The translations under genes and the position numbers were made by a program. A DNA stretch of 59,068 bases, counting the filler, from Basidiobolus ranarum (lineage: Eukaryota): assembly GCA_040143965.1 (NCBI GenBank). It is 2 parts of 2 records of this genome, joined end to end, with 100 filler letters (N's around TTAATTAATTAA, not from the genome) between each part and the next. Parts side by side here need not be neighbours in the genome. Positions count along the whole stretch, not along the records: positions 1 to 29,541 come from JASJQH010000104.1; 1 more part is not named here. One strand, 5' to 3'. The notes under the pieces are model-generated. The model made no database searches and had not been told where the DNA came from. It worked only from the letters and a program-made list of their open reading frames with translations. Of the stretch, positions 670 to 22,535 are shown piece by piece; the stretch's first letter is position 1; every line of letters begins with the position of its first letter.

Positions 670-1524
670 ATGGTCAGAATCTCTGTTTTGAACGATTGTC
701 TCAAGAACATCAACAACGCTGAGAAGCGTGGCAAGCGCCAAGTCCTCATCAGACCTTCATCCAAGGTTATTGTCAAGTTCTTGTCTGTTATGCAAAAGCA
801 TGGTAAGTGAATGAGTTTAATTTGAATAATCTACTGACATGAGGCATTGGGCTTTGTATTTTGTGAGGCTTTTGCGAGAATGAAGATGTTTGTAGTGTGG
901 TAATGGGACAATGATTGCAATCTAATCCGACGTCTATAACTGGATGAACGTAGTATCTACCTACCTACTTTGTCTTTTAATGCTTCGGTACATTAATTAC
1001 GTGTACTTACACGGCGTGGTTAAGGGGTTTTTCACCTTGCATGTTGTTTATATCTACGTGACAATCCTTGTACTTTTCAGTATAAGTTTGAGCTTATCCC
1101 ATTAGCAACACGAAGGCATCATTCATTCATTGCGAACATTTCGCAAGGTGCAACCTTCGTTGGTGCAGACAGTGCAGGGGAGTTGGCACTGACAGCAACA
1201 GAGTGTACTCTATCCAGTATTATTGGTGCAGATATGCTAACGTTTTCATGATTGATGTGTCTAGGTTATGTTGGTGAATTCGAAGAGATTGATGATCACC
1301 GTTCCGGCAAGATCGTTATTCAATTGAATGGTCGTTTGAACAAGTGCGGAGTTATCTCACCTCGTTTCAACATCAAGCTTACTGATATTGAGAACTGGAT
1401 CAACCAATTGTTGCCTTCTCGTCAATTCGGTTACCTTGTGTTCACCACCTCAGCTGGAATCATGGATCACGAAGAAGCTCGTAGAAAGCACACTGGTGGC
1501 AAGATCTTGGGTTACTTCTATTAA
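670..1524 (+). CDS. RPS22: 40S ribosomal protein uS8 (S22/S15a), 2 exons
   Basis: Exon 670-802 [48 protein letters not shown] intron 803-1264, exon 1265-1524 [18 protein letters not shown]...GKILGYFY. Confidence 0.98.
925..1066 (+). ncRNA. snR44: Intronic box H/ACA snoRNA, snR44 orthologue (guides SSU Psi106 and LSU Psi1056 equivalents, yeast numbering)
   Basis: Hairpin 1 (CCGA 927-930/TCGG 985-988) with pocket CTATAACT 934-941 + TTTAATG 976-982; H box ACATTA 990-995; hairpin 2 (TACGTG 998-1003/1055-1060) with pocket CTTACA 1006-1011 + TTTA 1047-1050; ACA 1061-1063. Both pockets are 14 nt from their box. Pockets complement recalled rRNA CAUUAAA-UC-AGUUAUAG and UAAA-UA-UGUAAG. Confidence 0.88.
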
Positions 1525-12864: not shown

Positions 12865-13982
12865 TTAGCGTCTTTGCTTCTTCATCTTCACCTGACATTC
12901 TTTACAATACCAAGCACCTTTAGGTGGATCTTTTAAACCAACACATTGATAATGAAACCATTCCAATTCACACTAAATAAATCCAATAAAATCCATTAAT
13001 CCATGAAATGAATTCGGTTTGTTAATAAATTCTTATACTTACATTATCATTATCACAAGCAATCATTTCACCAAACGATATCTGATTACAATAACAATAA
13101 GTAGGTTCATTCGGATCAATTCCAATTTCATGATTTCTATATTCAACATTAGTTTATCATATTTTAGAAATCTACAAAAAAAAATGGATTTCTTTACCGT
13201 TTAGTCACTTGCTCCAAAGGTTCTTCAATATCTTTCTTAGTATGTCGTGAGCTGGTGGAATTTTGTTGTGGTACTCTTGAAGGGGCTACATTTCCTTAAA
13301 TCAATGATAGGTGGGCTTGATGTCGATATGATAAAATAGAATTCTATTGAAAGGAGATTAACTCTACCTTTCTTATTTTCTTTTCGTTCGTGAGAGATAT
13401 CTTGGTTGGTTTCCTTAAGATTTTTATCACCACTAAGTACCTCCTGAAATCCAAGAAAATGATACTCCAAACGGTTCACATGACGGTCGACCTTTATAGT
13501 TTGTCAGTAGTTTTCAACCAAAATAGAAAATATCCAAAAATAAAAGAAAAAAAGATAAATCTAACAAATACCGTATCAGCAAGTTTCACAGCAAGGTTCA
13601 ATTTTTTCACTTCTTGTTTGGTATTTTCAGTAATACTTTGGTTTAATACTTTTAAACTAGAAATTCTTTCTTCTGTACTTTTCCTTTTATCTATCGTATT
13701 TAGAAAACCATCTAAAATACTTTCATACGTGTTATTGGTTTCTATTGTAAAAGGTTTTTATCAGTTTTAAACACGTTTTGAGAAAGTTTTGAAAGGAAAA
13801 ACTTACCGATAAAAGAACCTGCCACTTCTTTCCATAACGTGGAATTCCTTTGAAGTTCAGAGGGAAGTGAATCTAACGCTTGAAAATAATACAAATAATC
13901 GGTTCATTATTCACTCGTTTGAGTTGTAAAGAAAACGGGGGTTTCCGTGCTTACTATCGAAATAATCTTCTAGGTGATCCAT
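12865..13982 (-). CDS. ING-family (Yng2/Pho23/ING4-5-like) PHD-finger chromatin reader, ~7 exons
   Basis: Spliced: [20 protein letters not shown].../[21 protein letters not shown].../[52 protein letters not shown]; stop at 12865-12867. Confidence 0.92.
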
Positions 13983-19590: not shown

Positions 19591-22535
19591 CTACCAAAGT
19601 TCTACTTTAGAGGGTGGGGTACCTTGTGCTCTTGCTTCCCAATAACCACCAGTATATTGCCAGGACTCGTGTTCTGGGGAATGAGGGTCCGCTCTCTTTT
19701 CAAACCACTGAGGTGTCCAAGTTTCACCCGCAGCTTCCATCTGTTTTCTACGTTCTCGTTGTAATTGTTCAAGTCGTAGTTTCTCTTCATCAGCCTTATC
19801 AACCTCACCAAGTTCAAAAAGTCGTTGATCAGGACGATAGCGAGTGTCGGTATGAGGTAGTTTGTCTTTGATGTCTGCGGTGATTTCATTTAATTCCATG
19901 GAAAATTGAGTAAACCCGTAGTAATCAGAAGCATTTGAAAGTGGTGGATGAACATGCCAAATGACTTCATATTTATCTTCCCCATATTCAGTCCAGAAAG
20001 CGTGATTCCACTTGCCGCTGAGAGTTCTCACAACCTCTCCTTGAGCATTGTACAATGATGCTTGAACCTCATTATTCGATGATTTGAAAAAGGTTCCTTC
20101 TTTGAAGGTCAGTATACTGTACTCATTGGTAGTGTGGTTGGTGATGCGTACATCCCCCGAATGTTCCAAATAACGAGTGCCCGCCAGCATGTTTCGTACC
20201 CAGGTGGAGGGTTTAGAGTACGTATAAAGTTCATTATGCTTTGGTAATTCTACGTGAACAGTTCCACTTGGGATCATTTCAATCGATTTCCCCCAAAATT
20301 TACTCTTGATACTCGATTCTTGCCAGAATTTGTAGTGAGGTGATTCCGCGTAACAAGCCATGATCGGTGGATGATGGAGAACTTTCTCGGCGATGAATTT
20401 GAATCCTTTATCTGGCCTGTCGCATTCGTAGGTCTCACCAAGAAGAGGGTTAAATGGTTTTCTACCTGTTCGTGATTGACTAGATCCGTAGGCAGATAAT
20501 GCAAATGCTGTAACATATGCTAAACGATCGATGGAATCCGACGCCTCAGATGCCTTGTCAAGTAGTTCACTGTATTCAAGTTCTTCGCATAGTCGTTGTA
20601 GTAGATTTAACGGTTCGTTGAGGGCAACAGGCATGGCCACAGAAGACAGATCTTTTCCAACGTTTTTACGAAGAATTGACATAATGCTAACATCCGGTCC
20701 GGATACGGGAGAGGGAAGGGCTCTGCGACGATGGATCAGCTGTAGCGAATCCTTTCCAGAATGCAAATGAGTTATTGTTGAATCTTGGGGCTTAGAGGGT
20801 TCACATGCTTCCATCAAACTATCGTCATCATCGTCATCATCATCAATCTGCGATGAATCCTCGGTGCAAAGCATTCCATCTTGATCATCATCTCCAGATA
20901 TGCCTTCAGAAATAATTATCTCGGTAGCATCAAAGAATTCGTCCTCTCCGGTTGCAGCAGAGGAAGCAACAGACATTGGACGACTGTTACATCTATCGAT
21001 AGATACGCGACCGTTGCTACCAACATCATCCTTGAGATTTTCATTTTCTCGTGAAAGGATAGCAACTGTATTTTCTAAGGAGGAGCTTTTATTAGCTTCA
21101 TCAAACAGCATATCACGTAAATAGATATTGCTATTCTCTATATTCAAGAGGCAGCTTTCCAATTGCTCTACCAGATGCAGTGTCGTAGAAGGCGTAGCGT
21201 TACCATTTTCTGTAGCACCTAAGGAATAATGTGGTTAGTATAGTTAACCTGATGAACATAAACTTGTAGAAAAATACCTGAGTTGCTGGGTGGAGTTTCG
21301 AGAGATTGTTTGATGGAATTGATAAAGTTTTTGGCGTTGCTTAGATGTAATGCTAAAATATTGTATACCTCCTTCCCTTTACTATAAGTAGGTGACGGTT
21401 CTGAGATGTTCATGGCTCCTTGGCGCAGTGTGGAGATACGCAGACCCTCGTTGACCGACTTTACGGAGTTGGAAGTATCATTTTGCAAACTATCGCCGAC
21501 AACTTTGTCCCCGGATTGCTTAGAATATTTACCTATAACATTCATCCATTGCTCAAAGTCCTCAGCATTCAAAGCCTTCAAATTGTATAAACAGGATCCA
21601 CTATCAATGTTTATAATCCGAAGACTGGGGACAACATATATCACTGACAGTGGTATCTGAATAGACCCACGACAGTAACTTTGAGGATTCTTGAAATAAG
21701 ATAGTACACCTTTATCAATTTGTACCCAGCGCTTAGCCCAACCTGTTTGTTTAGTTAGTTAGTTGATATTGAGTTACAATCACGTTTAACACGTATATAC
21801 CAACCTTGTATCTTCTTTCTTTTCTTTTTAAGGAGCCAGCCACTAATCTCGGGCTCATTCTTTTTCTCCTCAGGACCTGTTAAATAAGAATAACATGATT
21901 AACCAAATGTTCGAAAATAGGCAAAAAATGAGGATTTTACCATCTTTAAGCCCGACAAAGAACGTTAGTTTTTTCGATGTATTACGAGAGAAAGAATTAT
22001 CTACATAAAGGAAAATAAGTATGATACGAATATAAGACTATACGTGATATATTTCTTTACCGAAGCATAAAACATAAGTTCCAGGCTCTTGAACTAGATG
22101 TGAGCCTTTAATGGTTGTTTTTGAAGACTCGTAATGACCGATGGGAATTATCTCAACGAGGCTAGGATCTTTAGTAGCAAGAAAGATGGTGGATGACTTT
22201 CGGATAGTCTTTGGAACAGGATTTTGAGAGTCTTGAAGACTAAGTATTGAAGTACTATCATCGCCTAATTCACAGTCGGCGCTTTCCGGAGCGAGAGAGT
22301 TGGAAGCAGGACCTCCATTGGGAACATTCCCAGCTCTAGGGGGGAGAAGATTTAAGCTGGTTGAAGACGCGATAAACAAGTCCGAAGAAGAGGTGACTTG
22401 TTCTCTTCGGTAATAGAGACCAAAAGAGATGTTCTTTCTCTTTGTTGAAAAATACCACAACAGATTCTTTCCCTTTTGGTCGACATATATGTAATGTTGA
22501 AAGATTTCTCTCGGTGGAACTTCTACTTCCTGCAT
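19591..22535 (-). CDS. OSH3: Oxysterol-binding protein-related lipid transfer protein (GOLD + PH + ORD), Osh3 type
   Basis: GOLD (LLWYFSTKRKNISFGL...GTYVLCFDN), PH (GWLLKKKRKKIQGWAKRW), FFAT-like DEFFDA, ORD motifs KPFNPLLGETYE, AEKVLHHPP, DTRYRPDQR. Confidence 0.95.

What the first reader, a model, noticed from the sequence alone, without database searches (positions are those of the whole stretch)
925..1066. snR44-like H/ACA snoRNA retained in the RPS22 intron with both yeast targets
Seen: the 462-nt intron is far longer than others here and contains a textbook hairpin-H-hairpin-ACA with 14-nt pocket-to-box spacing. Known: S. cerevisiae snR44 lies in an RPS22B intron and guides 18S Psi106 and 25S Psi1056; the pockets here complement those recalled rRNA contexts. 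Inference: host gene, guide and dual specificity are conserved between yeast and a distant fungal lineage, and the RNA is probably unannotated.
Basis: partly seen in the sequence, partly recalled or inferred. Interest (0 to 1): 0.72.

Follow-up and report, generated by a model that had tools for sequence, protein, structure and literature searches.

The report
snR44-type snoRNA in RPS22 intron
The long intron of the ribosomal protein S22 gene of the fungus Basidiobolus carries a small guide RNA of the yeast snR44 family, which directs two pseudouridine marks on ribosomal RNA; it is real and anciently conserved, but an ordinary member of a known family.

Summary
Window 924/925-1066 (+) lies in the 462-nt intron (803-1264) of an RPS22/uS8 gene. 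It has hairpin, H box (990-995), hairpin and ACA (1061-1063), with 14 nt from each pocket to its box. Rfam's snR44 model aligns end to end but far below threshold (14.5 vs 33 bits).

A metagenome scan with RPS22 exon 2 gave 80 loci. Of these, 55 have an intron at the same codon, and 48 of those 55 carry a homologous H/ACA RNA inside it. A covariance model built only from 45 of those loci finds the window element at 58.4 bits, E 2e-12. Ten of 20 loci tested pass Rfam's snR44 threshold. Stems covary while the guide strands and boxes stay fixed.

Pocket 1 matches 15 nt around U106 of eukaryotic 18S. Pocket 2 matches 10 nt of the fungal 25S site.

The host is Basidiobolus. Its own rRNA, the RNA's expression and close relatives could not be examined.

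Verdict: a divergent new member of a known family, already described in Neurospora and Fusarium. Interest is low to moderate. A strong ~52-bp helix bracketing the snoRNA is the one unusual feature.

The parts
670..802 (+). RPS22/uS8 exon 1 (44 codons plus the first base of Gly45)
   Evidence: Read. The translation gives an uS8 N-terminus that matches exon 1 of 73 metagenome loci by tblastn.
803..1264 (+). 462-nt phase-1 intron hosting the snoRNA. It starts GTAAGT and ends TAG. A TGCTAAC branch-point-like motif lies near 1236-1242 (read by eye).
   Evidence: The same intron site is present in 55 of 80 related loci.
849..908 (+). 5' arm of the long helix bracketing the snoRNA. 849-891 pairs with 1114-1156; 895-908 pairs with 1097-1111.
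   Evidence: Duplex energy is -57.5 kcal/mol against -26.8 +/- 4.2 for 1000 shuffles, with 0 shuffles as low.
924..1066 (+). snR44-family box H/ACA snoRNA. The mature ends are inferred, not measured.
   Evidence: Rfam snR44 alignment 925-1066; R1 hit; R2 hit at 58.4 bits, E 2.1e-12.
927..988 (+). Hairpin 1. The lower stem is 927-930/985-988 and the upper stem starts at 942/975. The pocket strands are 934-941 (CUAUAACU) and 976-982 (UUUAAUG). They are complementary to 18S CAUUAAA-UC-AGUUAUAG.
990..995 (+). H box ACAUUA
   Evidence: It aligns to the family's H-box consensus AgAUuA. The A at box positions 1 and 3 is invariant in alignment A2.
997..1060 (+). Hairpin 2. The lower stem is 999-1003/1055-1059 and the upper stem starts at 1012/1046. 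The pocket strands are 1006-1011 (CUUACA) and 1047-1050 (UUUA). They are complementary to the fungal LSU motif UAAA-UA-UGUAAG.
1061..1063 (+). ACA box, three nt before the predicted 3' end
   Evidence: It is invariant in A2, but my selection pattern required it.
1097..1156 (+). 3' arm of the bracketing helix
1265..1524 (+). RPS22/uS8 exon 2, ending in the stop codon TAA
   Evidence: 74-87% identity to the 80 metagenome loci.

Best explanation
Window 924-1066 encodes an intron-hosted box H/ACA snoRNA, the Basidiobolus orthologue of yeast snR44.

Inferred pathway: it is transcribed as part of the RPS22 pre-mRNA. It is released from the spliced intron by debranching and exonucleolytic trimming, protected by the H/ACA proteins (Cbf5, Nop10, Nhp2, Gar1).

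The 5' hairpin pocket pairs with 18S rRNA on both sides of the U equivalent to yeast U106 and directs its conversion to pseudouridine. The 3' hairpin pocket most likely does the same at the 25S U equivalent to yeast U1056.

Shown here: the sequence architecture, homology, covariation and complementarity to other organisms' rRNA.

Inferred, not shown: expression, processing and the modifications themselves.
For: 1. Architecture. There are two hairpins, H box ACAUUA, ACA three nt from the end, and 14-nt spacing in both hairpins.

2. Rfam. RF01262 snR44 aligns full length (1-211) exactly to 925-1066. It shares the guide strings AUAACU, UUUAA, CUUACAC and GUUUA.

3. Related loci. Of 80 loci encoding RPS22, 55 have an intron at the same codon. 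Model R1 finds one hit in 52 of the 80 loci and in 48 of those 55. All 48 hits lie inside the intron.

4. Independent model. R2 was built from 45 of those loci without the window. It finds 924-1066 at 58.4 bits, E 2.1e-12.

5. Link to snR44. Ten of 20 such loci reach Rfam's snR44 gathering score, from 87.3 down to 35.1 bits, at the same coordinates.

6. Covariation.
- On A2, 85% of cells are paired against 37-49% when the partner is slid. 18 of 24 pairs have compensatory changes, and 0 of 500 shuffles reach this.
- On A3, 89% are paired, 22 of 24 pairs have compensatory changes, 0 of 500.
- The H-box A.A, ACA and the guide strands do not vary.

7. SSU target.
- Pocket 1 is complementary to 7+8 nt of CAUUAAA-UC-AGUUAUAG.
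- In L056 that U is SSU position 106.
- Where the Rfam snR44 consensus and most related loci have G, opposite C in UAUCG-type 18S, the window has U, opposite A in UAUAG-type 18S.

8. LSU target. Pocket 2 (UUUA plus CUUACA) is complementary to UAAA-UA-UGUAAG, found in 3 of 11 eukaryotic LSU stretches (L149, L156, L157). In L156 that U is about LSU position 1051.

9. Literature. Yeast snR44 lies in the RPS22B coding-region intron and guides 18S-Psi106 and 25S-Psi1056 (PMC5291244, PMC7641733, PMC5699541). N. crassa ACA1 (136 nt, intronic) guides 18S-Psi105 from the H hairpin and 26S-Psi1037 from the ACA hairpin (PMC2780460).
Against: - Rfam's own model is far below its cut-off (14.5 vs 33 bits; E 2.2 even in a 511-nt search). 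It gave nothing at gathering threshold.
- The fold is no more stable than shuffled sequence (z -0.71).
- Only 18 of 24 model pairs are standard pairs in the window under the model alignment. The apical part of hairpin 1 pairs in a different register.
- The host's rRNA was never seen.
- The LSU site varies among eukaryotes: 8 of 11 LSU stretches lack the motif.
- Pocket 2 offers only 4+6 contiguous pairs.
- There are no expression data.
- The A2 members were chosen with a pattern that demanded ATAACT, TTTAA, TTA[CA]A, TTT[AT] and ACA. The invariance of those columns is therefore partly by construction.
- A4 was aligned by R1, which had seen the window.
- The taxa of the metagenome loci are unknown (one search was unresolved).
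Confidence: 0.87

Rival explanations
1. It is a real snR44-derived H/ACA snoRNA, but only the 5' hairpin guides (18S). The 3' hairpin is kept for snoRNP assembly, or has drifted to another or no target in Basidiobolus.
For: Pocket 2 gives only 4+6 bp with the fungal LSU motif. The LSU site differs among eukaryotes, with 8 of 11 stretches lacking the motif. The host LSU was not seen.
Against: CUUACA and UUUA sit at the same model positions as in the homologues. Many of those homologues also have only CUUACA plus UUUA. The spacing to ACA is the canonical 14 nt. The N. crassa homologue is assigned the LSU target (PMC2780460).
Confidence: 0.1
2. It is a decaying relic. The sequence descends from snR44 but is no longer made or functional.
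For: The Rfam score is low. Six of 24 model pairs are not standard under the model alignment. The intron is unusually long.
Against: Both boxes, both lower stems and both pocket strands are intact. The pocket-1 complement, at 15 nt, is longer than in most homologues. The element's own fold restores the apical stem in another register.
Confidence: 0.03
3. It is a chance pair of hairpins in an AT-rich intron with no relation to snoRNAs.
For: The MFE z-score is -0.71. Rfam gave E 2.2.
Against: R2 gives E 2.1e-12 over 59 kb on both strands, with the next hit at E 1.6. The element lies at the same place in the same intron of the same gene as 48 homologues.
Confidence: 0.005

Closest known systems
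Saccharomyces cerevisiae snR44 (Rfam RF01262), hosted in the coding-region intron of RPS22B
   Same: Box H/ACA with two hairpins. It has the same host gene and the same order of guides: the 5' hairpin for 18S-Psi106 and the 3' hairpin for 25S-Psi1056. It shares the guide strings AUAACU/UUUAA and CUUACA/UUUA (PMC5291244, PMC7641733).
   Different: The window RNA is about 142 nt against a 211-position model, because the upper stems are much shorter. It scores only 14.5 bits. Pocket 1 reads UAUAACU and UUUAAUG instead of GAUAACU and UUUAAGU. Pocket 2's 5' strand is shorter in complement (CUUACA against CUUCUUACA). The S. cerevisiae gene itself was not examined here, so identity of the intron site rests on loci L137 and L139, which score 82-87 bits on the snR44 model.
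Neurospora crassa ACA1 (PMC2780460, Table 2) and the intronic snR44 of Fusarium graminearum (PMC9606315)
   Same: N. crassa ACA1 is intronic and 136 nt, close to the window RNA's size. Its H hairpin guides 18S-Psi105 and its ACA hairpin guides 26S-Psi1037. The authors list it as the snR44 homologue.
   Different: These are Ascomycota. The host gene is not named in the passages I read, and their sequences were not compared here.
Human SNORA50 (Rfam RF00407); ACA36 is listed as the human homologue in PMC2780460
   Same: The 3' hairpin of the SNORA50 model aligns to hairpin 1 of the window through AUAACUGG...CUUUUAA. This is the same 18S site (14.1 bits, E 6.5, below threshold).
   Different: In SNORA50 the guide sits in the other hairpin. 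There is no LSU partner pocket and no RPS22 host. This is a resemblance of one pocket only.
Other fungal snoRNAs fixed in conserved ribosome-gene introns: snR59/snR39 in RPL7 and snR191 in NOG2 (PMC8476143)
   Same: An intron position is retained across most fungi together with an embedded snoRNA. That paper reports retention in 82% and 72% of species. Here 48 of 55 intron-bearing RPS22 loci carry the snoRNA.
   Different: The host genes and guides differ. The RPS22/snR44 pair is not discussed in the passages of that paper that I read.

Membership tests
Box H/ACA snoRNA (class) | Hairpin-hinge-hairpin-tail, with H box ANANNA in the hinge | tested here: met
   Hairpins are 927-988 and 997-1060, with ACAUUA at 990-995.
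Box H/ACA snoRNA (class) | ACA three nt from the 3' end | tested here: inconclusive
   ACA is at 1061-1063, and all models end at 1066. The real 3' end was not measured.
Box H/ACA snoRNA (class) | Bipartite pocket complementary to the target, with the target U 14-16 nt upstream of the H or ACA box (rule as stated in PMC2780460) | tested here: met
   Spacing is 14 nt in both hairpins. The complement is 7+8 nt to 18S and 4+6 nt to the fungal LSU motif, using rRNA of other organisms.
Box H/ACA snoRNA (class) | A stable RNA bound by Cbf5/Nop10/Nhp2/Gar1 | not testable with these tools
snR44 (Rfam RF01262) | Score at or above Rfam's gathering cut-off (33 bits). This is an operational cut-off of a model built on budding yeasts. 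| tested here: not met
   The score is 14.5 bits, E 2.2 in 511 nt. There was no hit at gathering threshold.
snR44 (Rfam RF01262) | Homology to sequences that do pass RF01262 | tested here: met
   R2, built from 45 loci without the window, hits 924-1066 at E 2.1e-12. Ten of 20 such loci pass RF01262 at the same coordinates.
snR44 (Rfam RF01262) | 5' hairpin guides the 18S U equivalent to yeast U106 | tested here: met
   There is a 15-nt complement. The target U is SSU position 106 in L056 and 107 in L019. The host 18S was not seen.
snR44 (Rfam RF01262) | 3' hairpin guides the 25S U equivalent to yeast U1056 | tested here: inconclusive
   UUUA plus CUUACA match UAAA-UA-UGUAAG in L149, L156 and L157, which is 3 of 11 LSU stretches. 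The host LSU was not seen, and only 10 contiguous pairs form.
snR44 (Rfam RF01262) | Hosted in the coding-region intron of RPS22 | tested here: met
   The intron is 803-1264, after codon 44. The same site is used in 55 of 80 loci, including L137 and L139, which score 82-87 bits on RF01262.

The most novel reading that the evidence does not exclude
The ~52-bp imperfect helix (849-908 with 1097-1156) that loops out the snoRNA may be a functional RNA element rather than an accident. It is absent from 13 homologous introns tested and is rich in G-U pairs.

[quoted passage not shown] That would let a 462-nt intron be spliced in a genome whose other introns examined here are about 40-80 nt.

Another is an entry site for a double-strand RNase that frees the snoRNA.

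A third is a binding site through which the S22/uS8 protein represses splicing of its own pre-mRNA, as shown for the other intron of yeast RPS22B (PMC13232506).
Probability: 0.25. Interest if true: 0.45.

Novelty: new member of a known kind. Interest (0 to 1): 0.3.

Why it matters
The result extends the snR44/RPS22-intron partnership from Ascomycota to Basidiobolomycota. This implies that the snoRNA, its two-pocket layout and its host intron site predate the split of these fungal phyla. The metagenome survey shows the partnership is the rule wherever the intron survives: 48 of 55 loci.

Practically, standard Rfam annotation misses this gene (14.5 vs 33 bits). The RF01262 model could be widened with the sequences gathered here.

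A survey of fungal snoRNAs found only 7 of 50 H/ACA families in both early-branching fungi and Dikarya (PMC5824354, section 21). If snR44 is not among those seven, this adds one. The list is in a supplement I could not open.

None of this changes how H/ACA guides are thought to work.

Tried and rejected
- Own-genome search for rRNA: no genome is held.
- Rfam at gathering threshold on the whole window: 0 hits.
- The rest of the intron showed no second snoRNA. The only other hits were sub-threshold PART1_1 (E 5.9) and SNORA50 (E 6.5), and I saw no box C/D motifs by eye.
- RNAalifold on the MAFFT alignment folded hairpin 1 correctly but misfolded hairpin 2. I therefore set the hairpin-2 pairs by hand from the anchored columns.
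These read AAATAGGTAGG (plant-like) and GAATGCGTAGG. It was found only after searching assemblies that hold fungal-type 18S.
- Naming the taxon of the window-like subgroup (L070-L085) with a neighbouring gene failed. The best named hits were Chaetothyriales at 45-55% identity, so the taxon stays unresolved.
- Earlier notes of this scan hold nothing on this genome or sequence.
- 'The fungal snoRNAome' main text does not mention snR44 or RPS22, and its supplement is closed.
- A search for Basidiobolus plus snoRNA returned one unrelated paper.
- The second R2 hit, at 13697-13776 (E 1.6), was dismissed as noise.

Full report
**What is there**

The window starts with an RPS22/uS8 gene on the + strand. 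Exon 1 is 670-802, a 462-nt phase-1 intron is 803-1264, and exon 2 is 1265-1524.

Folded alone, it forms two hairpins, 927-988 and 997-1061. They are separated by ACAUUA (990-995) and followed by ACA (1061-1063) three bases before 1066. In both hairpins 14 nt separate the base of the upper stem from the box. The described anatomy is therefore present at the stated coordinates.

Its folding energy is not unusual: z = -0.71, and 44 of 200 shuffles fold as well. Structure prediction alone proves nothing here.

**Host**

An oxysterol-binding-protein ORF of the window (19591-21234, minus strand) is 99% identical to a protein named Basidiobolus ranarum and 70% identical to one of B. meristosporus. 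That protein aligns at 99-100% over two exons. NCBI taxonomy places the species in the phylum Basidiobolomycota.

The host's rRNA and the expression of the RNA could therefore not be examined.

**Rfam**

At gathering thresholds the window has no RNA family hit. In a permissive scan of 780-1290, snR44 (RF01262) aligns over its whole model (1-211) exactly to 925-1066. It scores only 14.5 bits against a cut-off of 33, E 2.2. The alignment shares the strings AUAACU and UUUAA in hairpin 1 and CUUACAC and GUUUA in hairpin 2.

The 3' hairpin of human SNORA50 also aligns to hairpin 1, at 14.1 bits and E 6.5. Both hits are leads, not proof.

**Relatives**

A scan of metagenome contigs with exon 2 (85 aa) returned 80 loci at 74-87% identity. 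Mapping exon 1 onto them gave four groups:
- 55 have an intron at exactly the same site, after codon 44 in phase 1, 73-372 nt long.
- 18 have no intron there.
- 6 are cut off upstream.
- 1 (L125) has only a partial exon-1 match.

A simple pattern (ATAACT, then 15-110 nt, then TTTAA) matched 35 of the 55 introns. A fuller pattern matched 32 loci, 28 of them distinct.

I aligned the window with these 28 (A2). Because the pattern required ATAACT, TTTAA, TTA[CA]A, TTT[AT] and ACA, the invariance of those columns is partly by construction. The invariant H-box A.A, the lower-stem C-G and the first C of CUUACA were not required.

**Structure and covariation**

On A2, with hairpin 1 taken from RNAalifold and hairpin 2 set by hand, I counted the following:
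- 85.0% of cells form standard pairs, against 37-49% when the 3' partner is slid by 1-3 columns.
- 18 of 24 pairs show compensatory changes.
- 0 of 500 shuffles reach the observed values on four of five measures (14 of 500 on the fifth).

Model R1, built from A2, found one hit in the window and in 52 of the 80 loci. That includes 48 of the 55 intron-bearing loci, and all 48 hits lie inside the intron. The seven intron-bearing loci without a hit are L072, L073, L075, L109, L120, L134 and L136. None of the 18 intron-less loci has a hit within the roughly 3 kb of flank held.

On the 53-row model alignment A3, 89.2% of cells pair and 22 of 24 pairs show compensatory changes, with 0 of 500 shuffles reaching this. 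That alignment is fitted to the structure, so it leans towards it.

**Independent test of the window element**

I realigned 45 of the 52 loci, dropping five duplicates and two truncated hits. From these I built R2 without the window. R2 scores window 924-1066 at 58.4 bits, E 2.1e-12, over all 59 kb on both strands. The next hit has E 1.6.

One caveat applies: the alignment used for R2 was made by R1, which had seen the window.

Under the model alignment, 18 of 24 pairs are standard in the window. The apical four pairs of hairpin 1 are not, because the window forms its own apical stem in another register.

**Link to snR44**

Of 20 loci scanned with Rfam at gathering thresholds, 10 hit snR44 at the same coordinates as R1. 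The scores are L139 87.3, L137 81.6, L099 55.6, L129 44.7, L093 43.4, L088 38.1, L122 37.6, L107 36.7, L103 36.3 and L076 35.1 bits. The family defined here is therefore snR44, and the window RNA is a divergent member beyond the reach of Rfam's yeast-based model.

L137 and L139 have the intron at the same codon. The S. cerevisiae gene itself was not examined.

**Targets**

*Small subunit.* Pocket 1 (934-941 and 976-982) is complementary to CAUUAAA-UC-AGUUAUAG, 7+8 pairs, leaving U and C unpaired. Of these, 34 carry it in an 18S context: 28 read UAUAG and 6 read UAUCG. The motif's presence in those hits is by construction.

Rfam places the SSU start of L056 at 2027, so the target U is SSU position 106. 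In L019 it is position 107.

The Rfam snR44 consensus and most related loci have G opposite the C of UAUCG. The window, L112, L117 and L136 have U, which would pair with the A of UAUAG. This is consistent with guide-target co-variation, but the hosts' 18S sequences are unknown.

*Large subunit.* Pocket 2 (1006-1011 and 1047-1050) is complementary to UAAA-UA-UGUAAG, 4+6 pairs. This large-subunit site is not universal. Of 11 eukaryotic LSU stretches recovered, only three carry the motif: L149, L156 and L157. L156 and L157 come from assemblies that also hold UAUCG-type 18S. In L156 the target U is LSU position 1051 (LSU start 619), close to yeast 1056.

Many homologues likewise carry only CUUACA plus UUUA.

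**Literature**

- Yeast SNR44 lies in the second, coding-region intron of RPS22B (PMC5291244, passages).
- snR44 guides 18S-Psi106 and 25S-Psi1056 (PMC7641733, passages; PMC5699541, table passage).
- N. crassa ACA1 is 136 nt and intronic. It is assigned 18S-Psi105 (H hairpin) and 26S-Psi1037 (ACA hairpin), and is listed as the snR44 homologue (PMC2780460, Table 2 passage).
- F. graminearum has an intronic snR44 whose level depends on the debranching enzyme (PMC9606315, one passage).
- 'The fungal snoRNAome' states that only 7 of 50 H/ACA families are detected in both early-branching fungi and Dikarya (PMC5824354, section 21 read in full). Its main text does not name snR44, and the supplement that lists the families is closed.
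- A search for Basidiobolus plus snoRNA found one unrelated paper.
- Conserved snoRNA-bearing introns are documented for RPL7 and NOG2 (PMC8476143, passages).

**Unusual feature**

The intron arms on either side of the snoRNA pair with each other: 849-891 with 1114-1156 (39 bp) and 895-908 with 1097-1111 (13 bp). The duplex energy is -57.5 kcal/mol, against -26.8 +/- 4.2 for 1000 shuffles, with none as low.

Thirteen of the 59 flank pairs are G-U. This argues for a structure in the sense RNA rather than a DNA palindrome.

I tested 13 homologous introns with flanks long enough. None shows anything comparable: z ranges from -2.9 to +1.05. In the homologues the snoRNA ends 12-117 nt from the 3' splice site, against 198 nt here.

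Possible roles are a zipper stem that shortens the effective distance from the 5' splice site to the branch point (concept as in the abstracts of PMC12350175 and 10.1101/2025.03.14.643126, seen in a search listing only), an RNase III-type entry site, or an S22 autoregulatory site as shown for the 5'-UTR intron of yeast RPS22B (PMC13232506, passages). None of these was tested. That is an analogy only.

**Verdict**

This is a divergent new member of the snR44 family in its ancestral host intron. It is probably missed by routine annotation and has an unusual bracketing helix. It is biologically ordinary, and interest is low to moderate.

Noticed in passing
window 849-908 and 1097-1156: A ~52-bp imperfect helix rich in G-U pairs brackets the snoRNA inside the intron. 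Duplex energy is -57.5 kcal/mol against -26.8 +/- 4.2 for shuffles (0 of 1000 as low). It is not seen in 13 homologous introns tested.
   Followed up: partly
L072, L073, L075, L109, L120, L134, L136 (RPS22 introns): Seven of 55 loci keep the intron at this site but give no snoRNA model hit. Five of these introns are only 73-111 nt long. L136 has a hairpin-1-like stretch but no clear second hairpin.
   Followed up: no
alignment A2, columns 18 and 67 (window 942 and 975): The pair closing the upper stem of hairpin 1 alternates between G-U (window, L093, L137, L139, L140) and A opposite C (most others). This could be an isosteric wobble that the standard-pair counts ignore.
   Followed up: no
alignment A2, columns 82-87 (H box): In many homologues the last H-box position is G or C instead of A (for example AGAUUG, AUAUCG). 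The Rfam snR44 consensus also lacks the final A there. The window has the canonical ACAUUA.
   Followed up: no
L070, L071, L074, L076-L078, L080-L085, L128: This subgroup includes the loci with the RPS22 exon 2 closest to the window's. It shares the window's UUUAAUG strand but has a 2-nt shorter 5' pocket strand (UUUAACU). Its taxon could not be named.
   Followed up: partly
L088-L146, just after the ACA box: In many homologues the ACA box is followed within a few bases by a branch-point-like CTGAC or CTAAT. The snoRNA 3' end there lies only 12-60 nt from the 3' splice site.
   Followed up: no
L001-L068 (prokaryote genome contigs): 34 of 68 pattern hits in assemblies labelled as bacteria or archaea are eukaryotic 18S fragments. 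One assembly (G004) holds several different eukaryotic LSU types. This looks like contamination of those assemblies.
   Followed up: no
L056 6653-6995: A group I intron (Rfam RF00028, 109.5 bits) sits inside the LSU rRNA gene of this rDNA contig.
   Followed up: no
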